Source of the DNA: Candidatus Sysuimicrobiota bacterium CSP1-3
Lineage (GTDB): Bacteria; Sysuimicrobiota; Sysuimicrobiia; Sysuimicrobiales; Humicultoraceae
Direction: 5' to 3'
NCBI GenBank assembly: GCA_001443485.1
Contig: LDXQ01000007.1
Span: 1 to 49,066 of the forward strand
Length of the DNA stretch: 49,066 nucleotides
Shown: one piece after another, positions 1 to 48,356 of the stretch
Numbering within the stretch: the first letter of the stretch is position 1
How the letters are laid out: each line of letters begins with the position of its first letter
Made by a program: the position numbers and the translations under genes
Notes under the pieces: model-generated
Told to the model about the DNA's origin: nothing
The model's input: only the letters and a program-made list of their open reading frames with translations
Databases searched by the model: none

Positions 1-1
1 C

Positions 2-745
2 GGCAAGAAGATGAGCGGCTCCGCGGGACGGGGTGTCCTGGCGCATGAGTTCCTGGAAATCCTCCGTCCCGAACTGGCGCGCTTTCTCATGGTCCGCTTG
101 CACTACCGAGAGCAGAAGAACTTCGATCCCGGTGGCGAAACCATCCCGCGCCTCTACGACGAGTACGACCGGGCGGCACGTGCGTTCCGGGGAGAGGTGG
201 AAGATCCGGAACTGGCCCGCACCTACTGGTACGCGCGCATCGACGGCGCGCGACTGGACGTCGCCCGCCCCCGCTTCAGCAAGGTGGCCTCCCTGGTGCA
301 GATTCCGTCGGTGGACGTGGAGGAGGCGATCGCGGAGGACAAGGGCGAGGCGCTTTCGGCGGAGGACCGCGAGGAGTTGGCGCAGCGGATCGCCGACGCC
401 CGGCGCTGGCTGGCGCACTACGCCCCGGATGCCTACAAGTTCGAGGTGCAGCGCGCCCTCCCGGCGGCGGTGAATGCGCTCTCGCCGGGGCAACAGGAGT
501 TCCTGGCCCGGCTGGCGGAGGTGGCGGAGCAGGCGGAAGCCTGGCGGGGGGACGTGCTGCACAGCCGGATGCACGATCTCAAAGCCACGATGGGCCTGCC
601 GCCGCAGGAGGCGTTCAGCGCCATCTACCGGGCGTTTCTGGGCAAGGACTCCGGTCCGCAGGCGGGATGGCTGCTCGCCGCCCTGGACCGCGACTTCGCC
701 CTGCGCCGCCTGCGCGAGGCGGCGGGGACCAGGACGGCGTCATGA
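2..745 (+). CDS. lysS: Lysine--tRNA ligase, class I (C-terminal part; 5' truncated by window)
   Basis: Frame begins GKKMSGSAGRG (KMSKS-type motif of class I LysRS); C-terminal anticodon-binding helices with FSAIYRAFLGKDSGPQAGWLL typical of LysRS1. Confidence 0.9.
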   Translation, partial: GKKMSGSAGRGVLAHEFLEILRPELARFLMVRLHYREQKNFDPGGETIPRLYDEYDRAARAFRGEVEDPELARTYWYARIDGARLDVARPRFSKVASLVQIPSVDVEEAIAEDKGEALSAEDREELAQRIADARRWLAHYAPDAYKFEVQRALPAAVNALSPGQQEFLARLAEVAEQAEAWRGDVLHSRMHDLKATMGLPPQEAFSAIYRAFLGKDSGPQAGWLLAALDRDFALRRLREAAGTRTAS

Positions 746-1710: not shown

Positions 1711-3801
1711 GTGAAGCCGTATCCAGCGGACAAGATCCACAACGTCGCCGTGGTGGGACACGGCGGCACAGGCAAGACCTCGCTTGTCGAAGCGATGCTC
1801 TTCGTGGCCAAGGCGATCGACCGCCTGGGGCGCGTGGACGAGGGCACGACGGCCACCGACTTCGACGCCGAAGAGGTGCGGCGCAAGCACACGATCAACG
1901 CCTCGCTGGCGCCGCTGGAGTGGCGGGAGCGGAAGGTCAATCTGATCGACACACCGGGCTATCCCGACTTCATCGCCGAGATGGTCGCCCCGCTGCGGGT
2001 CTGCGAAGGGGCGCTCATCGTGGTGGACGCGGTGGCCGGGGTGGAGGTGCAGACGGAGAAGGCGTGGAGCAACGCCGATGAGAGCCGCACCAGCCGTCTC
2101 GTCGTGGTCAACCGCCTCGATCGGGAGAACGCCGTCTTCGCCCGCACGGTGGAAGGGCTGGCGGCGAAGTTCGGCACCCGCGTCGTCCCCCTGCAGATCC
2201 CTATCGGCGCGGAGGCACAGTTCCGGGGCGCGGTCGACCTGCTGCACATGACGGCCTATACCTGGGCGGACGGCGAGCCCGCGGTCGGCGAGATCCCGGC
2301 CGACCTGAACGCGGAAGCCGAGGCGGCCCGGGAGCGTCTGGTGGAGGCGGCGGCCGAGAGCGACGATGCGCTGACAGAGAAGTATCTAGAGGAAGGGACG
2401 CTATCGCAGGAGGACCTGGAGCGCGGGCTGCACCTGGGGGTGCGGGCGGGCACACTCGTTCCCGTCCTCTGCGCTGCCGGCCTGCGCACCATCGGCATCG
2501 CGCCGATTCTCGACGCCGTCGTCACCCTGCTGCCCACGCCGCCGGAGGCGGGCCCGGTGGTGGGGCAGAAGCCGGGGAGCGGCGAGGAGGTGCGGCGTGA
2601 GCCCAGCGCGGATGCGCCGCTCGCCGCGCTCGTCTTCAAGACCATGGCCGACCCCTATGTAGGCAAGCTCTCCTACTTCCGCGTCTACACCGGGCGCTTT
2701 TCCAGCGACACCCCGGTGTACAACGCCACGCGTGACAAGTTGGAGCGGGTGGGCACGCTCTACTATCTGCGCGGGAAGCAGCAGGAGGCGGTGGGCCAGA
2801 TCGCCGCCGGGGACATGGGCGCGGTGGCGAAGCTCGCGGAGACGGCTACGGGCAACACCCTCTGCGCCAAGGAGGCGCCGGTCGTGCTGCCGCCGGTGCA
2901 GTTCCCCAAGCCGGCGATCACGCTGGCGATCGAGCCGAAGACGCGCGCCGACGAGGACAAACTGGCGAACGCCCTGCACCGCCTGGCCGAGGAGGATCCC
3001 ACCGTCCGGGTGCACCGCGACGGCGAGATGAAGCAGACCGTGATCTCCGGGATGGGGGAGTCTCACCTGGAGATCATCGCCGACCGCTTGAAGCGCAAGT
3101 TCGGCGTCGAAGTGACCCTCACGGTGCCGCGCGTGGCCTACCGGGAGACGATCAGGAAGAAGGCCGCGGCGCAGGGACGCTACGTCAAGCAGACCGGCGG
3201 CCGGGGGCAGTACGGGGTCTGCAGCCTGGAGCTCGAGCCGCAGCCGCGCGGCGGCGGGTTCGAGTTCGTGGACGAGATCTTCGGTGGGGCCATCCCCAAC
3301 CAGTTCATCACCTCGGTGGAGAAGGGCGTGCGCAAGGCGCTGGAAGAGGGGGTGCTGGCCGGATATCCGGTGGTGGACGTGCGGGTGCGCCTGGTGGACG
3401 GCAAGTACCACCCGGTGGACTCCTCGGACATCGCCTTCCAGATCGCCGGCTCGATGGGATTCAAGGAGGCGGCCGCGGAGGCGCAGCTGGTGCTGCTGGA
3501 GCCGGTGATGAACGTCTCCGTGCGCGTCCCCGAGGAGTTCATGGGCGACATCATCGGCGACCTGAACGCCAAGCGGGCGCGGATTTCCGGCATGGAGCCC
3601 CAGGGGGACGGGACGACGGTGGTGAAGGCCCAGGTGCCGCAGGCGGAGACGCTGCGCTACGCCAGCGACCTGCGCTCCATCACCGGCGGCCGTGGGACTT
3701 TTGAGCTGGAGTCCTCCCACTACGAGGAGGTCCCCGCCCACGTCGCGGAGCGGGTCGTGGCGGAGGCGAAGAAGCAGAAGGCGGCGGCCGCGGGCCATTG
3801 A
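1711..3801 (+). CDS. fusA: Elongation factor G, EF-G2-like paralog
   Basis: 696 aa; GHGGTGKT, DTPGYPDF, GMGESHLEI, KQTGGRGQYG, YHPVDSS, LRSITGGRG; GAGGTG RBS before GTG. Confidence 0.92.
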   Translation: MKPYPADKIHNVAVVGHGGTGKTSLVEAMLFVAKAIDRLGRVDEGTTATDFDAEEVRRKHTINASLAPLEWRERKVNLIDTPGYPDFIAEMVAPLRVCEGALIVVDAVAGVEVQTEKAWSNADESRTSRLVVVNRLDRENAVFARTVEGLAAKFGTRVVPLQIPIGAEAQFRGAVDLLHMTAYTWADGEPAVGEIPADLNAEAEAARERLVEAAAESDDALTEKYLEEGTLSQEDLERGLHLGVRAGTLVPVLCAAGLRTIGIAPILDAVVTLLPTPPEAGPVVGQKPGSGEEVRREPSADAPLAALVFKTMADPYVGKLSYFRVYTGRFSSDTPVYNATRDKLERVGTLYYLRGKQQEAVGQIAAGDMGAVAKLAETATGNTLCAKEAPVVLPPVQFPKPAITLAIEPKTRADEDKLANALHRLAEEDPTVRVHRDGEMKQTVISGMGESHLEIIADRLKRKFGVEVTLTVPRVAYRETIRKKAAAQGRYVKQTGGRGQYGVCSLELEPQPRGGGFEFVDEIFGGAIPNQFITSVEKGVRKALEEGVLAGYPVVDVRVRLVDGKYHPVDSSDIAFQIAGSMGFKEAAAEAQLVLLEPVMNVSVRVPEEFMGDIIGDLNAKRARISGMEPQGDGTTVVKAQVPQAETLRYASDLRSITGGRGTFELESSHYEEVPAHVAERVVAEAKKQKAAAAGH

Positions 3802-3810
3802 CGGTGTGCG

Positions 3811-6759
3811 ATGCGTGAAAGGCTGGGGGCGGCGAGGGACGAGATCCGCCAGCGGATCAATCTGGTGGAACTTGTTTCGCAGCATGTTGCCCTGAAGAAG
3901 GCGGGGCGCCAGTACAAAGGCCTCTGTCCCTTCCATCAGGAGAAGACGCCCTCGTTCCACGTCGACCGGGAGAGAGGCCTTTGGTACTGTTTTGGTTGCT
4001 TCCCCCCAGGCCAGCTGGTGAAGACCCCTTTTGGCTACCACCCCATTGAGACACTCACTGATGAGCACCCCATAGTTTCCGGGCAGGGGAACTACCAACG
4101 TGTGCTTGCAACCCACGCGCGAGATTACAACGGTGACTTGATCGAGATCGTTACCCGAAAGATCCGAAGGCCCGTCAGGTTGACCGCCGACCACGAGGTC
4201 TTTATCGTCCGCCCCACGGCGCGTCACGAAACGCGTTTCAAGTACTTTGCCAGGCGATTCCGGGCGTACTTGAGGCGATACGAGGATGACCCCGGTTACT
4301 ACTTCCGCAAAATCGCGAAATGGCTCCCCATCCGAAAGATGGAGGCCACGGAACTACGAGTTGGCGATTTGCTTCTTTATCCAATCAATGATCGGGTAAG
4401 CCGAGTTGAGCAAATTGACCTGGAAGACTACGTGTCAGCGCGAGGAACCCGTGGGAAGCGACCGGCGCGTCTCCCAGTCGTTCCGGTCAGCGAAGACTTC
4501 CTCCGTCTGATCGGCTATTTCATCGCAGAAGGAAGCACCCATCGAGCCTATGTCCGGTTCAGCCTAGGGAATCACGAGGAGGTGTTCGCCAGCGAGATCA
4601 TCAGACTGATCAAATCTCTCCTGGGGATTCGCTCGGGTGTTCACCGGCGGCGAAGCCCAAGCTCGGGACTGGAGATCACAGCATGCCATGCCGCACTAGC
4701 CAATGCCTTCGCCAACCTGTGCGGCCGTGGTGCAGAGGAGAAGCATATTCCCTTCGTTTTCCAGGAATTGCCCCCTTCCCAGAAGCGCATCCTAGTCGAG
4801 GCCATTGCCCGGGGTGATGGCACGCAGTCAGTCGCAAACCAGTCTAGCCATACACGCCGTTCGATTACAACCGTCTCCCCCGTGCTTGCGGAACAGGTGG
4901 TCGACTTCCTTCTTGCATTAGGTCGTTTCCCTAGCGTCCAACTGAGAGAGCCGAGGCGCGACCGGCAGGGGGTGGTCCACAGGGAGGCTTACACGATTCA
5001 ATGGTCGGAGGACGCGCGTGCGCGATATGACCTCGTCTACCGTACGGATAATGGGAGACGATATTGGCTTCTGCCCATAGAACGGTTAGGGAAATTGAGA
5101 TATCGCGGTCCTGTGTACAACCTGACGGTGGAAAAAGATCACTCCTATATTGTGTCCCACATCGCCGTTGCGAACTGCGGTCAGGGCGGCGACGCCTTCG
5201 ATTTCGTCATGCGCACCGGCAACCTCTCCTTCCCCGAGGCGCTGGAGCAGCTGGCCGCGCGCACCGGCGTGCGGTTGGAGCGTAGCCCGGAGGAGGGGCA
5301 GGACCGCTCGGAGCGGGAGCAGATGCTGCGGGCGCTGGACGCGGCGGCGGCGTTCTACCGGGAGCAGCTGGCCGGCGACGCCGGGCAGGTGGCCCGCGCG
5401 TACTTAGAGCAGCGTGGCGTGGACGCGCAGACGCGAGAGCGGTTCGGCCTGGGCGCCGCGCCGCAGGCTTGGGATGCGCTGTTGCGCCACCTGCGCGGCC
5501 GCGGGTACCCGGTCGCGCTGCTGGAGCGCGCCGGCCTGGTGCAGGCGCGCAGCGGGGGAGAGGGGCACTTCGACTTCCTGCGCCACCGCCTGATCTTCCC
5601 AATCCAGGACCTGCAGGACCGCACCGTCGCGTTCGGCGGCCGGGCACTGGACGACGCCACGCCCAAGTACCTGAACTCCCGCGAGTCGCCCGCGTTCAAC
5701 AAAGGGAGGATGCTCTACGCCCTCAACTGGGCGCGGGAGGCGATCCGGGAGGCGGGCGAGGTCGTCATCGTGGAAGGGTACATGGATGTTGTGACCTGCC
5801 ACCAGGTCGGCATCCGCCACGCCGTGGCGTCGCTGGGGACGGCGCTTACCCCGGACCACGTCCTGCTGCTGAAGCGCTTCGCGCCGCGGGCGGTGGTGGT
5901 CTATGACCCCGACGCGGCGGGCATGGCCGCCAGCGAACGGGGGCTACACCTCTTCGAGGAGGCGGAACTGCCGGTGCGGGTGGCGGCGCTGCCCCAGGGG
6001 CGAGATCCCGACTCCTTCCTCCGCCAGGAAGGCCCGGAGAAATTCCGGACGATTCTGGCCACTGCCCTTTCCATGTTCGACTATCAGGTAGCCCAGGCCC
6101 TCTCCCGCCACGACCCCCGCACCTTAGAAGGAAAGATCGCGTTCGTCGACGAATTGCTGCCTGTTCTAGGGTCGGTGGCAAACCCGGTCCGCCAGTCCGA
6201 ATACCTGCGGGCCCTCGCGGAGCGGTTCAAAGTTTCCGAGGATGCGCTGCGCCAGCGCCTCGTCGCTCTCAGACGGTCGGGCCGGGGCGCGGCGAAGCCG
6301 CCAGAGCCGTCGGCCGTCCAGGGCACCAAACGGTTCCGGGCGGAGCGGCTGCTTGTGCACATGATGGTGCAGGCGCCGGAGGCCCGGAAGGTCGTTCGCC
6401 GAGACCTCTCGGTCGAGGATTTCCTCGATCCCCTCCACCGCAATCTGGCGCAGGTCTTGCTGGACGCGGATGCGCCGGCGGAGGCGCTGAAGGACCGCCT
6501 GGCCGACCAGGAGAGCGTGGCCTTGCTGACGCGGCTGCTCTTCGAGCCGCTCGGGGTCGCGGAGAAGGACGAGGAGAAGGTCTTGCTCGGCAACATCACC
6601 ACCCTCCGCCGGGTGGAGGTGGAGGAGAGACTCCGCGAACTGCGGCGGCGGCTGGCCGAGGCGGAGGCGGTGGGGAACGAGGAAGAGGTCGCGAACCTGC
6701 AGCGGGCGATTTGGGCGCTGCGTAGCCAGGAGCCGCGACCACAGGAGGCGCCGCGCTAA
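3811..6759 (+). CDS. dnaG: DNA primase DnaG, intein-containing (982-aa precursor, about 589 aa after splicing)
   Basis: [13 protein letters not shown] zinc finger, [37 protein letters not shown]; directly upstream of rpoD. Confidence 0.96.
3997..5175 (+). mobile_element. Intein with LAGLIDADG homing endonuclease (393 aa) in the DnaG zinc-binding domain
   Basis: Block A CFPPGQLV, block B LTADHEV (TxxH), block [10 protein letters not shown], block [11 protein letters not shown], block [19 protein letters not shown], block [15 protein letters not shown], terminal AVAN followed by Cys+1; removal restores WYCFGCGQGGD; visibly more A/T-rich than host gene. Confidence 0.96.
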
Positions 6760-6775: not shown

Positions 6776-7897
<1,122 letters not shown>

Positions 7898-7973: not shown

Positions 7974-9656
7974 TTACGGGCCGACCGTGAGCTTTGTCGT
8001 ATAGATGCTCTGGTTTCTGTTGCCGACGCTGTTGGTCGCGCCGGGGCCTGGGATCAGGTCGCACTGCCCAGCGGGCACGTCGCGGTTGTCGGTCCAGACG
8101 ACGTGCACGATGTGGTTCGCCCCGTCCCAGCGGGCGTCCAGTTCGATGTAGTCGCCGTGGAAGGCGACACTGCCACTACCAAACATCTGGCAGTTTCCCT
8201 CATGAGACACGCCGGTGACCCTCGTCTCGGCATCAAATGCGGGCCAGGTGAACCCGTTGCAGTTGGTGCAGCGGTAGTAGACGTCGAGGGCCTCGTTGCC
8301 GGCCGTCACGCTGTTCCGGAAGTCGTACCAGGCCGCGTGCAGGGCGCCCTGAGAAACCTCGATCGTCGGCCAGATCTGATGTCGTGACCCGGGGTCGGTG
8401 TTCACCTGCACAGGTGCTCCCCAGGTCGCGCCGCCGTCCGTCGATCGGGCGGCGTAGATGTCGTAGTCGCCGGCGAAACTCTGGTAGGCGACGTAGACGA
8501 TATTGGGGTTCACATTGTCCGTGGCGATGAACGCGAAGGTGGGCGTGCGGAAGGCCACGCCGGGCGCCTGGGGCGCAGAGATCGCCGCCACGTTCACCGG
8601 GTTCGTCCAGTGGGCTCCACAGTCGGTCGACTTGACCATCTGGATCGACGCAACGTCCGAGTTCGTCGTGAAGGTGCGGTACGCGACGTAGATCGTGCCG
8701 TTGGGAGCCACGGCGATGTCGGATCCCTGGGTTCGCACCGTCCCGGCCCGACCGCCGGTGGAGATGACCCGCGGGCTGGAGAAGCTAGCCCCGCCGTTCG
8801 TCGAGCGGCTGAACACGATAGGGAACGCCCCGCCCAAGCCACGGAAACTGGTGAAGCTCACATACACGCTCCCGGCGCATGGGCTGGCCGCGGCCGGATT
8901 CAGGTCGATCTCCATCCATTCTTTGTCCACGAAGATCCCCGCGAAGCCGAAGGGCTGGTTAGGGACGGCGAAGCCGACGGCGCCGCGGTCCACGATGGCC
9001 GTGCCCGCATACGTGAAGTGCGGCGGTGAACCCGCCGTCGTTGTCGTGCTCGCCGTTGCCGCGGTGCCTGGAGTGAAGTTGTACTTGGCGACATAGACGA
9101 CGTTGTCGACCGGCCGGTCCGGCTGGTCGAAGTTGCGGTTGAAGGCGATGCCGGCGACATACAGGTTGCCGGCCGCATCAAACCGGACGACCGGGTCGCC
9201 CGACCCATCGAGGTTCTTCAGCGGCGAGTTAACCCCGTCGCTGGAAGTGTCGGTGGGGAACCCGGGGACCATCGTGTTGTAGCCGTTGGGGAACGGCGCA
9301 GCGCCGAACCAGGTTGTTCCGCTGTTGAAGGAGAGGTAGACGGGCATCCAGGCATCGCCGAAGTGTGGAACCATGCGGTAGTCGTTGGACGCCGCGGCGA
9401 TGATGTCTCCGACCGCGCCACCTGGAGGGGCCATCGGGCTGATGGCCACCGTGGGCTCGTTGGACTGGCGGTTCCTGGCGTCCCTGCTCGGCGTGGTGGC
9501 CGCAGTGCCACCATCGACGTTGTTGTTATCATCGGTGACCTTGACGTTAGGCCCGACGCCGGCGTGGCCGGCAAAGATACTGGGCGCGGTGATGAGGCTT
9601 AACGCCGCGACCACAGTCAACAGGATCTGTACGTGCCGGTGAACGCGAGAAGACAT
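7974..9656 (-). CDS. Secreted BNR/Asp-box (sialidase-like beta-propeller) protein
   Basis: N-terminal signal peptide; Asp boxes SFNSGTTW, STNGGASF, STDCGAHW, STDGGATW; GGGGTGA RBS before ATG 9656. Confidence 0.85.
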   Translation of the reverse strand: MSSRVHRHVQILLTVVAALSLITAPSIFAGHAGVGPNVKVTDDNNNVDGGTAATTPSRDARNRQSNEPTVAISPMAPPGGAVGDIIAAASNDYRMVPHFGDAWMPVYLSFNSGTTWFGAAPFPNGYNTMVPGFPTDTSSDGVNSPLKNLDGSGDPVVRFDAAGNLYVAGIAFNRNFDQPDRPVDNVVYVAKYNFTPGTAATASTTTTAGSPPHFTYAGTAIVDRGAVGFAVPNQPFGFAGIFVDKEWMEIDLNPAAASPCAGSVYVSFTSFRGLGGAFPIVFSRSTNGGASFSSPRVISTGGRAGTVRTQGSDIAVAPNGTIYVAYRTFTTNSDVASIQMVKSTDCGAHWTNPVNVAAISAPQAPGVAFRTPTFAFIATDNVNPNIVYVAYQSFAGDYDIYAARSTDGGATWGAPVQVNTDPGSRHQIWPTIEVSQGALHAAWYDFRNSVTAGNEALDVYYRCTNCNGFTWPAFDAETRVTGVSHEGNCQMFGSGSVAFHGDYIELDARWDGANHIVHVVWTDNRDVPAGQCDLIPGPGATNSVGNRNQSIYTTKLTVGP

Positions 9657-9736
9657 ACAGGCTCTCACCCCCTATGATGTCTGAAACGAGACCGGGCTCT
9701 CTCACCTCCTCCGGTGAAGGGTTTTCGCGGAAAGCG

Positions 9737-9951: not shown

Positions 9952-11598
9952 CTAGGGTCCGACTGTCGCGTAGAAGATGTTCTCGTTCCGCACCCGGTTG
10001 GGCGGGATCTGCAGGTTGGATGCCACGTTCAGGCGCAGGTCGGTCCAGTTCATGTGCGCCCGGCCGGTCGGGTCGACGGCCAGGCCGTTGTAGTCGCCAA
10101 TGAAGAGAGTCTTTCCGTTGGTCGCGCCGCTGAACCAGCGGGCGTGGTTCGGGTCGGAGAGGGCCGTGTGGACCGTCGTGTACGTCCAGCTGGCGCCACC
10201 GGTGGTCGAGCGGGCCAATGTCATGCCCAGCAGGACCTCGCCAGGGCCGGGGTCGTAGCCGTCGTCGTAGTAAGCGACGTTGATCGTCCCGTTGGGAGCC
10301 ACGGCGATCCAGGGGAAGAACTGATCGCCGGGGGCGTTGCTGACGTTGATCGGCGTTGTGGTCCAGGTCACGCCCTGGTTCGTCGACGTGCTCAGGAAGA
10401 CGTCGGTGTTCGTAGCGGCGGTGCTGCCGATGCGGTTGTCCGACCAGACCAGGTAGACGGTGCCGTCCGGACCCACCGTGACATTCCCTGCCGAGTTGAC
10501 GCGGTACTGCACGTCGGTCAGCGTCTGCCGGCCGTTGATGGCGACGGGGTAATCGAAGACGCCGTCCACCAAGTCAGCAACCTTGAATGGTCCCGCCCAG
10601 GTCATCCCGCCATCGCTGGACCGCACTACCAGATACTGGCTTCGGAAGTCCGGTCCGGCGGTGTTGGTGTTTTCGAAGGCGACGTAGAGGGTGCCGTCGG
10701 GCGCCACTGCGGGGACGGAGAACTGGTCCTCATCACACTGGTTCGCCGGGCCCGAGACCTGCGTGATGCAGAACGGCCCGCTGCCGCTGATCTCTCTTGC
10801 CGGCGACCAGGTGCGTCCCCCGTCCGCGGAGGAGGCAAACCAGATCGCCGACCGCAGATATGCGCCGCCCGGGCCGGATTCAAATCCCGACCAGGTGACG
10901 TAGATCCGGTCGCGGTGGGGACTGCCCGGCCAGGTGTCGACGGTCATCCATTCCTTGTCGTCGAAGAATGACCGTCCCAGGTTGCCGAAGCCTTTGTGCA
11001 CCGCGACGGGGAGCGCGTAGTGCAGGCCCCCGTCGGTGGATTTGGCCACGAGCACCGACCCGTTCGAGGCCGCGGCGCCGCCCTGACTGGTATGATAGCC
11101 GACGTTGGCGTAGTAGGCGTTTCCCTGAGAGTCAAACGCGAAGACCGGATCGGTCGCCGTATTGAACCCGCCCATCTCCAGGAAGCCGGTGGTCCAGGTG
11201 TGACCGCCGTCCATCGAGGCACGGAAATCGTTGAGGGAGCGCACGACCAGCGTGCCGCCCTGGAAGTAGAACTCGTATCCGTTGGCGCCGGCAACCAGAT
11301 TGCTGTCGTTGGTCGGGTTGACGGCGATGTGCGGTTCGTTGTGTGGCGCCACGGCGACGAAGGCGCAGTCGGAGAGGATGTTGCCTGCCGAGCTGGTGGT
11401 GGTGCTGCAGCGCAGTCGCGCCGCCTGGGCCTCCCCGGGGACGTCCTGCAGCAGGGCCGACAATGTCTCGATGGCGCCGGAGAGATGTGGCCCGCGCGCA
11501 GCGGCGGTCGGCTTCGCCGACACCGCCGGATCGGGAGCGAGCAGGGTGCCTGCGCACAGCAAGAGAATGCCGATCAGAACGTGCCGCGTCATGAGCAT
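9952..11598 (-). CDS. Secreted BNR/Asp-box (sialidase-like beta-propeller) protein, paralog of 7974-9656
   Basis: Signal peptide after GAGGAG RBS; Asp boxes SMDGGHTW, STDGGLHY, SADGGRTW, SSDGGMTW, STNQGVTW, STTGGASW; shares DPV..FD..GN.Y, DKEWM, GDY..L, WTD.R and terminal TVGP with neighbour. Confidence 0.87.
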   Translation of the reverse strand: MLMTRHVLIGILLLCAGTLLAPDPAVSAKPTAAARGPHLSGAIETLSALLQDVPGEAQAARLRCSTTTSSAGNILSDCAFVAVAPHNEPHIAVNPTNDSNLVAGANGYEFYFQGGTLVVRSLNDFRASMDGGHTWTTGFLEMGGFNTATDPVFAFDSQGNAYYANVGYHTSQGGAAASNGSVLVAKSTDGGLHYALPVAVHKGFGNLGRSFFDDKEWMTVDTWPGSPHRDRIYVTWSGFESGPGGAYLRSAIWFASSADGGRTWSPAREISGSGPFCITQVSGPANQCDEDQFSVPAVAPDGTLYVAFENTNTAGPDFRSQYLVVRSSDGGMTWAGPFKVADLVDGVFDYPVAINGRQTLTDVQYRVNSAGNVTVGPDGTVYLVWSDNRIGSTAATNTDVFLSTSTNQGVTWTTTPINVSNAPGDQFFPWIAVAPNGTINVAYYDDGYDPGPGEVLLGMTLARSTTGGASWTYTTVHTALSDPNHARWFSGATNGKTLFIGDYNGLAVDPTGRAHMNWTDLRLNVASNLQIPPNRVRNENIFYATVGP

Positions 11599-11608
11599 GG
11601 GGATCTCC

Positions 11609-11875
11609 TCACAGCAATTTTCCCAGGGGCCTAGTGTGAACAGTTCGTGTGCATTGCGAAGCGGTCCTTCCGTAGACCGCGCAATGTGAGGGAGATCTGC
11701 GCGCCGTCGCCACAGCCCGTTGGTTGCTTGCATAGTTGAGGTAGCTTGGCAGACCGATGGCCAACAGGATCCCCATGATCCCCAGCACTACGAGCGCTTC
11801 GACCAGGGTGAACCCCGCCGGCGCAGCGAAAACACGGTGCGAAACCCTGGCGCGGCGCGTACCCTGCAGATCCAT
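11609..11875 (-). pseudogene. Truncated type IV prepilin (N-terminal methylation motif only)
   Basis: AG|FTLVEALVVLGIMGILLAIGLPSYLNY class III signal helix; pilin-like sequence stops after about ATARR and the frame ends at 88 aa. Confidence 0.65.
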
Positions 11876-24596: not shown

Positions 24597-24673
24597 GCCG
24601 CTGTAGCTCAACCCGGCAGAGCACCGCACTTGTAATGCGGGGGTTGTCGGTTCGACTCCGACCAGCGGCTCCA
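24597..24673 (+). tRNA. tRNA-Thr(TGT)
   Basis: Acceptor GCCGCTG/CAGCGGC, anticodon stem CCGCA/TGCGG with loop CTTGTAA, GTTCGAC T-loop, encoded CCA. Confidence 0.97.
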
Positions 24674-48281: not shown

Positions 48282-48356
48282 GGGCGCTTAGCTCAGAGGA
48301 AGAGCGCCTCTCTGACGCAGAGGAGGTCGGAGGTTCAAGTCCTCCAGCGCCCACCA
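48282..48356 (+). tRNA. tRNA-Val(GAC)
   Basis: Acceptor GGGCGCT/AGCGCCC, anticodon stem CCTCT/AGAGG with loop CTGACGC, GTTCAAG T-loop, encoded CCA. Confidence 0.96.

What the first reader, a model, noticed from the sequence alone, without database searches (positions are those of the whole stretch)
3925..5190. Primase zinc finger split by an intein so that the intein's catalytic Cys1 occupies a Zn-ligand position: candidate zinc/redox-gated splicing switch
Seen: the DnaG CHC2 finger (C-PF-H ... C-FG-C) is interrupted between Gly and the last Cys. The true fourth ligand is the +1 nucleophile (TGC 5176). The unspliced precursor still reads WY-C-F-G-C because the intein starts with Cys (3997), so a complete C/H/C/C set exists using Cys1. 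Established: Cys1 must be free for the N-S acyl shift; a Cys(-3)-Cys1 disulfide traps the Pyrococcus abyssi MoaA intein precursor; Zn2+ inhibits several inteins. Inference: Zn occupancy or oxidation of C(-3)xxC(1) could hold the essential primase as an inactive precursor, giving post-translational control of DNA priming by zinc or redox state.
Basis: partly seen in the sequence, partly recalled or inferred. Interest (0 to 1): 0.85.

Follow-up and report, generated by a model that had tools for sequence, protein, structure and literature searches.

The report
Mobile intein splitting the primase zinc finger
The DNA primase gene carries a self-splicing, mobile protein insert exactly at the last zinc-binding cysteine of its zinc finger; this is real and belongs to a large uncharacterised family, but nothing shows it acts as a zinc or redox switch rather than as an ordinary selfish element.

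Summary
dnaG (3811-6759, 982 aa) carries a 393-aa Cys1/Asn393/Cys+1 intein with a LAGLIDADG endonuclease (3997-5175). It sits between Gly62 and the fourth CHC2 zinc ligand, so the precursor reads C-F-G-C with intein Cys1 in the ligand slot.

The intein is not unique. At least 356 DnaG proteins carry a homologue at this site, and all 16 organism-named ones are Patescibacteria. It looks mobile:
- 33 of 40 relatives have precise intein-less alleles and none has this intein.
- Its GC is about 0.57 against 0.70 in the flanks.
- It is better conserved than the primase core.
- The endonuclease catalytic residues are kept.

An unrelated intein, abundant under actinobacterial names, uses the neighbouring third ligand Cys as +1.

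Zinc or redox sensitivity is chemically plausible, given published Cys-3/Cys1 traps and zinc-inhibited inteins. It is untested, and an adaptive switch has no support here. An AlphaFold2 precursor model assembles the whole zinc domain across the intein, so Cys+1 may be the ligand instead. One extra result: 24 of 108 related inteins in other hosts also sit at C-x-x-|C.

The parts
3811..6759 (+). dnaG precursor ORF, 982 aa (589-aa primase plus 393-aa intein); the only dnaG match in the 89%-complete assembly
3811..3996 (+). N-extein, aa 1-62: first part of the CHC2 zinc ribbon with Cys39 (3925-3927), His42 (3934-3936) and Cys60 (3988-3990), ending Phe61-Gly62
   Evidence: C39, H42, C60, F61 and G62 are present in every aligned homologue
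3997..5175 (+). Intein, 393 aa: HINT splicing domain with a nested LAGLIDADG endonuclease; GC 0.55-0.60 against about 0.70 in the flanks
   Evidence: Structure: PI-PkoII 2cw7 Z 30.2 and TliVMA 7qsu Z 30.2, with model range 63..455 or 61..455; Foldseek E 9.8e-22
3997..3999 (+). Intein Cys1 (TGC), the step-1 nucleophile; it lies in the sequence slot of the fourth zinc ligand in the precursor
   Evidence: Cys in 118 of 118 aligned homologues
4183..4194 (+). Splicing block B, T-A-D-H (Thr125..His128 of the precursor)
   Evidence: T 119/120, D 119/120, H 120/120
4501..4536 (+). First LAGLIDADG motif, [12 protein letters not shown], with catalytic Glu240
   Evidence: E 117/120; Pfam LAGLIDADG_3 scores 35 bits against a cutoff of 22.5
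4783..4824 (+). Second LAGLIDADG motif, [14 protein letters not shown], with catalytic Asp336
   Evidence: D 117/120
5113..5175 (+). Splicing blocks F and [22 protein letters not shown]: Asn where block F usually has Asp, no penultimate His (Ala392), terminal Asn393
   Evidence: N375 119/120; penultimate residue A79/S27/G9/L3/N1/T1 with no His; N393 120/120
5176..5178 (+). Cys+1 (TGC), the step-2 nucleophile and true fourth zinc ligand of the mature primase
   Evidence: (C 120/120)
5176..6759 (+). C-extein, aa 456-982: rest of the zinc domain, DNAG_N core, Toprim and DnaB-binding domain

Best explanation
This is a canonical class-1 intein (Cys1, block-B Thr/His, C-terminal Asn, Cys+1) with a nested LAGLIDADG homing endonuclease. 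It is a selfish mobile element that has homed into dnaG at the codon of the fourth CHC2 zinc ligand. The site is favoured because that Cys is invariant, which supplies the obligatory +1 nucleophile, and because the CFGCG-coding DNA is strongly conserved, which gives a stable endonuclease target. The 982-aa precursor splices: an N-S acyl shift at Gly62-Cys63, transfer to Cys456, Asn455 cyclisation, then an S-N shift. The products are a 589-aa primase with a restored zinc ribbon and a free endonuclease that cuts empty dnaG alleles. The C(-3)-x-x-Cys1 arrangement follows automatically from inserting before the second Cys of a zinc knuckle. The catalytic cysteines lie at a metal site, so splicing is probably slowed in vitro by zinc or oxidants. 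I judge that an incidental property, not an evolved control of priming. What is shown: the anatomy, the fold, family membership, mobility signatures and empty sites. What is inferred: that splicing occurs, that the endonuclease is active, and any metal or redox sensitivity.
For: A continuous in-frame ORF carries all splicing residues. The AlphaFold2 model has pLDDT 90.5. Its best structural matches are endonuclease-bearing inteins spanning model residues 63-455. There are 356 homologous DnaG-intein proteins among 8000 scored candidates, and the same junction appears in 118 of 120 listed. Of 40 relatives, 33 have dnaG with N- and C-extein matches abutting, 1 has a different intein, 6 lack the junction in the assembly, and 0 have this intein. 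Empty sites are precise in 7 of 7 relatives read. Intein GC is 0.55-0.60 against about 0.70 in the flanks. Median intein identity is 49%, against 37.7% for the primase core in 104 distant homologues, and 74% against 66% in 14 nearer ones. Catalytic Glu and Asp of the endonuclease are each kept in 117 of 120. An unrelated intein (best BLASTP E 0.35) uses the neighbouring ligand Cys as +1, and 119 of 120 listed hits show this junction. Only one dnaG was found in the assembly, so the precursor must mature.
Against: Splicing and endonuclease activity were not and cannot be shown here. The family lacks the penultimate His (0 of 120) and has Asn instead of the usual block-F Asp (119 of 120). Both features can slow splicing and would allow precursor to build up. 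Cys at -3 is strongly enriched among related inteins in other hosts: 24 of 108, against 0-5 of 108 at each other position from -1 to -12. The mirror arrangement, Cys at +4, is seen in 1 of 66 and in 0 of 28 inteins with both junctions resolved. A purely neutral 'any conserved Cys will do' model does not obviously predict that asymmetry. Higher conservation of the intein than of the host could also reflect selection on the intein itself. Pfam's Intein_splicing and Hint_2 models score below their cutoffs.
Confidence: 0.78

Rival explanations
1. In the precursor, Cys39, His42, Cys60 and intein Cys1 form a complete zinc site, or Cys60-Cys1 forms a disulfide. Either holds the Cys1 thiol, blocks the N-S acyl shift and keeps the primase inactive. 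Zinc status or redox state would then control priming as an evolved switch.
For: The four residues are present in the right spacing. A Cys-3/Cys1 disulfide blocks splicing in an engineered Ssp DnaE intein and in the native Pab MoaA intein (review passages). Zinc bound to a catalytic Cys inhibits Msm DnaBi1 in its native host. This family lacks the penultimate His and the block-F Asp, which may make it slow and therefore regulable. Cys(-3) is recurrent among related inteins.
Against: There is no evidence of selection for such a role. The intein is absent from all 40 relatives searched, foreign in composition and apparently horizontally spread. A second successful DnaG intein does not recreate C-x-x-C at its N-junction. 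Cys1 conservation does not discriminate, since all 133 related N-junctions have Cys. The AlphaFold2 precursor model builds the native zinc domain from both exteins, with 101 of 102 residues of 1d0q aligned at rmsd 2.0, which favours Cys+1 as the ligand. Splicing is irreversible, so a reversible trap only delays maturation.
Confidence: 0.1
2. The zinc domain folds natively in the precursor around Cys39, His42, Cys60 and Cys+1, with the intein looped out. Zinc then acts on step 2. It either sequesters the Cys+1 thiolate, which would stall the thioester or branched intermediate, or it templates the two exteins and so speeds and proof-reads splicing.
For: In the AlphaFold2 model of aa 1-530, 101 of 102 residues of the solved primase zinc domain superpose at rmsd 2.0 A (Z 15.9) over model range 1..496. 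That range includes both exteins and spans the intein. For 2au3, 93 residues align at rmsd 1.6. Intein termini are adjacent by construction of the HINT fold.
Against: AlphaFold2 takes extein contacts from co-variation that reflects the mature protein, so it may impose the mature arrangement. No coordinates, zinc or per-residue alignment were available, so which Cys lies at the ligand position is unknown.
Confidence: 0.12
3. Cys(-3) benefits the intein rather than the host. A reversible Cys(-3)-Cys1 disulfide or metal contact protects the catalytic thiol from irreversible oxidation, or lets the N-extein fold. Inteins of this clade therefore persist preferentially at the second Cys of C-x-x-C motifs.
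For: Cys is at -3 in 24 of 108 non-DnaG junctions, in at least 7 different host contexts, against 0-5 of 108 at other positions. Cys is at +4 in 1 of 66 junctions. Among 28 inteins with both junctions resolved, 15 have Cys(-3) and 0 have Cys(+4).
Against: The junctions are not independent, because host families repeat. Only the best 150 of 4732 representatives were seen. Extein-context compatibility inherited within one intein clade could give the same pattern. The actinobacterial DnaG intein has the opposite arrangement.
Confidence: 0.1
4. The insert is a decayed, non-splicing remnant, and this dnaG is a pseudogene or needs another primase.
For: None beyond the non-canonical penultimate residue and the block-F Asn.
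Against: The frame is open throughout. All nucleophiles and block B are intact and are conserved across 120 homologues. The non-canonical residues are family-wide rather than private. No second dnaG was found in the assembly.
Confidence: 0.02

Closest known systems
Pyrococcus abyssi MoaA intein and the engineered Ssp DnaE 'redox trap' (Callahan et al. 2011; seen only as passages in reviews PMC3922620, PMC10663303 and PMC11766414; the paper itself is not held)
   Same: [quoted passage not shown] The extein Cys belongs to a cofactor-binding motif of the host. That MoaA is a radical-SAM enzyme is recalled, not checked here.
   Different: Here the host motif is a CHC2 zinc ribbon of a replication protein, and the metal would be zinc rather than an iron-sulfur cluster. 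No disulfide or conditional splicing has been shown for this intein.
Mycobacterium smegmatis DnaB intein 1, zinc-inhibited in its native host (Woods et al. 2020, PMC7360933; abstract and section 11 read)
   Same: It is an intein in an essential replisome protein, and its catalytic Cys can be held by zinc.
   Different: DnaBi1 is a class-3 mini-intein. Zinc binds Cys118, Val119 and Tyr128 inside the intein, not a host zinc finger. Here the ligands would come mostly from the extein.
DnaG inteins listed by Novikova et al. 2016 (PMC4760082, Table 1: 14 inteins in Actinobacteria and Proteobacteria) and the actinobacterial-type DnaG intein found here in relative G019
   Same: Same host protein and the same zinc knuckle. 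Each has Cys1, a terminal Asn, Cys+1 and a LAGLIDADG domain.
   Different: The G019-type intein is 313 aa and shows no significant similarity (E 0.35). It is inserted three residues upstream, (Y/H)|C...GN|CFGC, so that +1 is the third ligand and no C-x-x-C is formed with Cys1. The paper's main text gives no insertion sites, and its supplements were closed.
SufB, NrdJ and radical-SAM inteins of sister genomes
   Same: They are 27-42% identical to this intein. All start C(F/L)xP... The radical-SAM ones sit at C-x3-C-x2-|C and also lack the penultimate His.
   Different: The hosts differ. The SufB and NrdJ sites have no Cys at -3.
PI-PkoII, TliVMA and PI-SceI (solved endonuclease-bearing inteins)
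   Same: Overall fold: Z 30.2, 30.2 and about 20 over model residues 63-455.
   Different: Sequence identity is only 16-23%, and the hosts and insertion sites differ.

Membership tests
Class-1 intein (HINT protein-splicing domain) | Cys or Ser at intein position 1 | tested here: met
   Cys63 of the precursor (TGC 3997); Cys in 118 of 118 aligned homologues
Class-1 intein (HINT protein-splicing domain) | Block B Thr-x-x-His | tested here: met
   T125-A-D-H128; T 119/120 and H 120/120
Class-1 intein (HINT protein-splicing domain) | C-terminal Asn followed by Cys, Ser or Thr at +1 | tested here: met
   Asn455|Cys456; each 120/120
Class-1 intein (HINT protein-splicing domain) | Penultimate His (G:6) and block-F Asp (F:4); these are assisting residues, not obligatory | tested here: not met
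   Ala392 (no His in 120) and Asn375 (119/120). Inteins without the penultimate His are known (title cited in PMC4031507), so this marks a variant and is not an exclusion.
Class-1 intein (HINT protein-splicing domain) | HINT fold | tested here: met
   AlphaFold2 pLDDT 90.5. Mini-inteins and the hedgehog HINT domain align at Z 15-17 and rmsd 1.6-2.5 over 63..455; large inteins reach Z up to 30.2. Pfam Intein_splicing (23.5 bits against 35.8) and Hint_2 (19.8 against 28.4) are below cutoff.
Class-1 intein (HINT protein-splicing domain) | In-frame insert in a conserved host gene, with precise empty alleles elsewhere | tested here: met
   33 of 40 relatives have abutting extein matches; 7 of 7 read at the DNA level are precise
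Class-1 intein (HINT protein-splicing domain) | Protein splicing actually occurs | not testable with these tools
   Needs expression and detection of the 589-aa and 393-aa products
LAGLIDADG homing endonuclease | Two LAGLIDADG motifs, each with a catalytic acidic residue | tested here: met
   Glu240 and Asp336, each 117/120. Pfam LAGLIDADG_3 is above cutoff. I-DmoI and I-Tsp061I matches have E about 1e-6.
LAGLIDADG homing endonuclease | Site-specific cleavage of the empty allele | not testable with these tools
   Needs a cleavage assay on the CFG|CG-coding DNA of an intein-less dnaG
Bacterial DnaG primase | CHC2 zinc ribbon, DNAG_N core, Toprim and DnaB-binding domain | tested here: met
   All are above Pfam cutoffs. 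The zinc domain matches 1d0q and 2au3.
Redox-trap conditional inteins (Pab MoaA type) | Cys at -3 paired with catalytic Cys1 | tested here: met
   Cys60-Phe-Gly-Cys63
Redox-trap conditional inteins (Pab MoaA type) | Disulfide forms and splicing depends on reduction | not testable with these tools
   Needs biochemistry
Zinc-inhibited inteins (Ssp DnaE, Mtu RecA, Msm DnaBi1) | Zinc bound to a catalytic nucleophile, with reversible inhibition | not testable with these tools
   The model gives no metal or coordinates. The native zinc domain is predicted to be assembled next to both nucleophiles.

The most novel reading that the evidence does not exclude
A large clade of Cys1 inteins lodges preferentially just before the second Cys of C-x-x-C metal or redox motifs. 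The hosts include the primase CHC2 fingers, other zinc ribbons (one protein, P0139, has an intein in each knuckle), radical-SAM C-x3-C-x2-C motifs and a C-A-T-C pyridine-nucleotide disulfide oxidoreductase. Every such precursor therefore carries a C(-3)-x-x-Cys1 pair at a cofactor site. Metal loading or thiol redox state would then gate maturation of many cofactor proteins. In this genome and in many Patescibacteria it would gate the replicative primase.
Probability: 0.12. Interest if true: 0.75.

Novelty: new member of a known kind. Interest (0 to 1): 0.4.

Why it matters
DnaG is essential and single-copy here, so replication depends on this splicing event. The catalytic cysteines of the intein and the zinc site of the host share the same few residues. 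That makes this a clean natural system for asking whether cofactor loading and protein splicing are coupled, and at which step (Cys1 or Cys+1).

The family is large, dominated by Patescibacteria, and no paper in the searched library describes it. The excess of Cys at -3 among related inteins hints at a rule for intein site choice that a proper census could test. If the excess is only a by-product of homing to conserved cysteines, this is an ordinary intein in an unusual place.

Tried and rejected
- **Primary papers.** The redox-trap papers (PMC3087850, PMC3718494) are not held. I relied on review passages. I did not verify that the Pab MoaA intein sits in the radical-SAM motif. Supplements of Novikova 2016, which may list DnaG insertion sites, were closed and not requested.
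- **Sequence-only intein evidence was weak.** Pfam HINT models scored below cutoff and PDB phmmer gave E about 3e-4. I replaced this with AlphaFold2 plus fold search.
- **Cys1 conservation at this site** holds in 118 of 118 aligned homologues but proved uninformative, because every one of 133 related junctions has Cys1.
- **Model coordinates** are not exposed, so S-S distances and the identity of the fourth ligand could not be measured.
- **Complex prediction with zinc** was considered and not run. It scores protein partners, cannot score a ligand, and the report claims no protein-protein binding.
- **Census limits.** A wider census of Cys(-3) against Cys(+4) over all intein families was not feasible with the locus caps. 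The binomial p is overstated, because junctions from the same host family are not independent.
- **Other readings rejected.** A group I intron or free-standing endonuclease gene is ruled out by the single continuous frame. A decayed intein is ruled out because all catalytic residues are conserved family-wide.
- **A failed pattern.** My first pattern found no N-junctions because it was too strict. One search corrected it.
- **Rows dropped before counts.** In one search, only alignments starting at intein residue 1 with at least 12 upstream residues were counted (133), and only those ending at residue 393 with at least 12 downstream residues (66). In one search, rows covering less than 70% of a region were left out.
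Full report
**What is there.** The window carries one long open frame at 3811-6759 (+) of 982 aa. It lies between an EF-G paralogue (1711-3801) and rpoD (6776-7897). Pfam reads it as a DnaG primase. Zn_ribbon_DnaG matches in two stretches, the best at aa 10-68. DNAG_N covers 515-641, Toprim about 650-737 and DnaB_bind 756-811. A LAGLIDADG_3 domain lies at 230-284 inside a 393-aa insert.

Direct reading gives Cys39 (3925-3927), His42 (3934-3936) and Cys60-Phe-Gly62, then the insert. The insert begins with Cys (TGC 3997) and ends ...HIAVAN (AAC 5173-5175). It is followed by Cys (TGC 5176) and GQGGD.

**It is an intein.** The insert has Cys1, block B T-A-D-H, blocks [23 protein letters not shown], a terminal Asn and Cys+1. 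It also has two LAGLIDADG motifs with Glu240 and Asp336. Pfam's HINT models are below cutoff and PDB sequence matches are weak, so I folded aa 1-530 with a 65-sequence alignment. The model has pLDDT 90.5 and pTM 0.80.

Foldseek's best hits are endonuclease-bearing inteins: TliVMA 7qsu at E 9.8e-22, then PI-SceI, PI-PkoII and PI-PfuI. VIA-align gives PI-PkoII Z 30.2 over model residues 63..455 and TliVMA Z 30.2 over 61..455. Mini-inteins align at Z 15-17. The structural boundaries therefore coincide with the sequence boundaries.

**The zinc-finger claim.** Precursor aa 10-68 align to the solved B. stearothermophilus primase zinc domain 1d0q at residues 11-69, with CFGC over CFGC. In sequence, intein Cys1 therefore stands where the fourth ligand stands. 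The ligand numbering of 1d0q is recalled, not checked. Seven intein-less alleles in relatives read ...CFG|C..GGD... uninterrupted at this point.

**How common is it?** A search with aa 40-480 found 356 proteins at E <= 1e-3 among 8000 scored candidates. All 120 listed are DnaG-sized proteins of about 950-1050 aa with the same insert. All 16 that carry an organism name are Patescibacteria/CPR, such as Levy-, Davies-, Gottesman-, Blackburn- and Shapirobacteria.

In an alignment of the 120:
- Cys1 is present in 118 and gapped in 2.
- Asn393 and Cys+1 are present in 120.
- Block-B Thr is present in 119 and His in 120.
- The penultimate residue is never His (A79, S27, G9, L3, N1, T1).
- The block-F position that is usually Asp is Asn in 119.

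This is a coherent, previously uncharacterised family with a slightly non-canonical active site. DnaG is already listed as an intein host, in the table of PMC5874633 and in Table 1 of PMC4760082, which counts 14 inteins in Actinobacteria and Proteobacteria. I found no paper on an intein in the DnaG zinc finger. That library lacks most subscription journals.

**Signs of a mobile, selfish element.**
- Among 40 relatives from the same genus to the same order, 33 have dnaG with the N-extein match (about aa 8-63) abutting the C-extein match (from aa 456). One (G019) has another intein. Six lack the junction in their assemblies (G001, G003, G004, G011, G013, G023). None has this intein. The same-genus genome G002, 76% identical in the C-extein, is empty.
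- Intein GC is 0.55-0.60 against about 0.70 on both sides.
- The intein is more conserved than its host. Median identity to the window is 49% for the intein, against 37.7% for the DNAG_N+Toprim core and 18% for the C-terminal domain, in P0017-P0120. In P0003-P0016 it is 74% against 66% (whole C-extein figures are).
- The endonuclease catalytic residues are each kept in 117 of 120.
- The assembly, 89% complete, has one copy of this intein type and one dnaG.

**A natural control in the same knuckle.** Relative G019's dnaG has a different intein three residues upstream...GLFY|CLAGETRV...ILTGN|CFGCHAGGD. Its +1 is the third ligand, and its Cys1 is followed by L-A-G, so no C-x-x-C forms at the N-junction. 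This 313-aa intein is abundant. There were 2505 hits at E <= 1e-5 among 8000 candidates, although the query included some extein. Of the 120 listed, 119 show each junction, and the names are Streptomyces, Nocardiopsis, Nonomuraea and similar. It shows no significant similarity to the window's intein (best E 0.35). Two unrelated inteins have therefore each taken one cysteine of the same zinc knuckle as their +1 nucleophile. That fits 'conserved Cys plus conserved DNA', and it shows that a complete surrogate ligand set is not required.

**The same geometry elsewhere.** Related inteins in sister genomes (27-42% identity) sit in several hosts:
- SufB, at VEG|C.
- NrdJ, at ALN|C.
- Two radical-SAM proteins, at CNLKCAF|C...GN|CQN and CDLHCPY|C...AN|CQNW. 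These are C-x3-C-x2-|C sites with Cys1 in the third-Cys slot.

A profile-free scan of 1.84 billion representatives with the intein alone gave 4732 hits at E <= 1e-3. In the best 150 I could place 133 N-junctions, and all start with Cys. Twenty-five are the primase-type CFG|C. Of the other 108, 24 have Cys at -3, while every other position from -1 to -12 has 0-5. Cys at +4 occurs in 1 of 66 C-junctions. Among 28 non-primase inteins with both junctions resolved, 15 have Cys(-3) and 0 have Cys(+4).

The 24 fall into at least seven host contexts:
- B12-binding radical-SAM proteins.
- A Pyr_redox_2 protein at ...YCAT|C.
- Prim-Pol and Toprim primases.
- Several unassigned zinc-ribbon proteins.
- P0139, which has an intein in each knuckle of one ribbon.

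These junctions are not independent, and only the top 150 hits were seen, so this is a lead and not a result.

**What this means for the zinc/redox idea.** The chemistry has precedent. A Cys-3/Cys1 disulfide blocks splicing in an engineered Ssp DnaE intein and in the native Pab MoaA intein (passages). Zinc inhibits several inteins. In Msm DnaBi1 it binds the catalytic Cys118 and acts in the native host (abstract and section 11). Measurable zinc or oxidant sensitivity in vitro is therefore likely. An evolved switch is another matter, and the comparative data above give no support for it.

The AlphaFold2 precursor model adds a complication. Of the 102 residues of the native zinc domain 1d0q, 101 superpose at rmsd 2.0 A (Z 15.9) over model range 1..496. 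For 2au3, 93 residues align at rmsd 1.6 over 3..491. The model therefore builds the zinc domain from both exteins with the intein looped out. Cys+1 may thus already occupy the fourth position, with Cys1 beside it. AlphaFold2 may impose the mature extein contacts, and I could not read coordinates, so the ligand is undecided. Zinc might act on step 1 through Cys1, on step 2 through Cys+1, or even help splicing by templating the exteins.

**Verdict.** This is a real, correctly described intein at the fourth zinc ligand of the primase. It is a new member of known kinds: inteins at C-x-x-C cofactor motifs, and DnaG inteins. Most likely it is an ordinary mobile element whose metal or redox sensitivity, if any, is incidental. 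The switch hypothesis remains testable and cheap to test. The Cys(-3) excess is the most interesting by-product.

Noticed in passing
L004 (relative G019, contig C5), about 630-1570: A second, unrelated 313-aa intein in dnaG, three residues upstream, with the third zinc ligand Cys as +1 (...FY|CLAGETRV...TGN|CFGC...). It is abundant in proteins named from Streptomyces, Nocardiopsis and Nonomuraea.
   Followed up: yes
L015 (G001 C47) and L016 (G016 C14): Radical-SAM proteins in relatives carry related inteins inserted at C-x3-C-x2-|C, so Cys1 stands in the third cluster-Cys slot. Both lack the penultimate His (GN|C and AN|C).
   Followed up: partly
L011 (G002 C42), L012 (G008 C24), L013 (G027 C44), L014 (G032 C26): Relatives carry SufB inteins (VEG|CLPPGE...HN|CTAP) and class II ribonucleotide reductase-like inteins (ALN|CFPAG...HN|CY) that are 27-31% identical to the DnaG intein. 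The window's own assembly shows no second intein of this type.
   Followed up: partly
P0139 (representative protein, residues 310-1062): One protein has two inteins, one before the second Cys of each knuckle of a four-Cys zinc ribbon (NCPQ|C ... HN|CGSEWNGMVCTN|C ... KN|CG).
   Followed up: no
P0220 (representative protein, residue 147): A pyridine-nucleotide disulfide oxidoreductase has an intein inside a C-A-T-|C motif, which looks like the redox-active disulfide of thioredoxin-reductase-type enzymes (motif identity recalled).
   Followed up: no
window 5113-5175: The whole DnaG-intein family lacks the penultimate His (0 of 120) and has Asn instead of the usual block-F Asp (119 of 120). Splicing may be slow, or may rely on other residues.
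   Followed up: partly
window 7974-9668 (-) and 9952-11733 (-): Two adjacent large proteins with weak BNR/sialidase-like repeats (the first is below the Pfam cutoff). The first has an N-terminal hydrophobic segment suggesting export.
   Followed up: no
window 1711-3801 (+): A full-length EF-G paralogue ends 10 nt before the dnaG start, and rpoD starts 17 nt after the dnaG stop. The intein-bearing dnaG therefore sits in a tight EF-G/dnaG/rpoD gene string.
   Followed up: partly
window 24597-24673 and 48282-48356: tRNA-Thr(TGT) and tRNA-Val(GAC). The many long overlapping antisense ORFs in the list are the usual artefact of about 70% GC.
   Followed up: no
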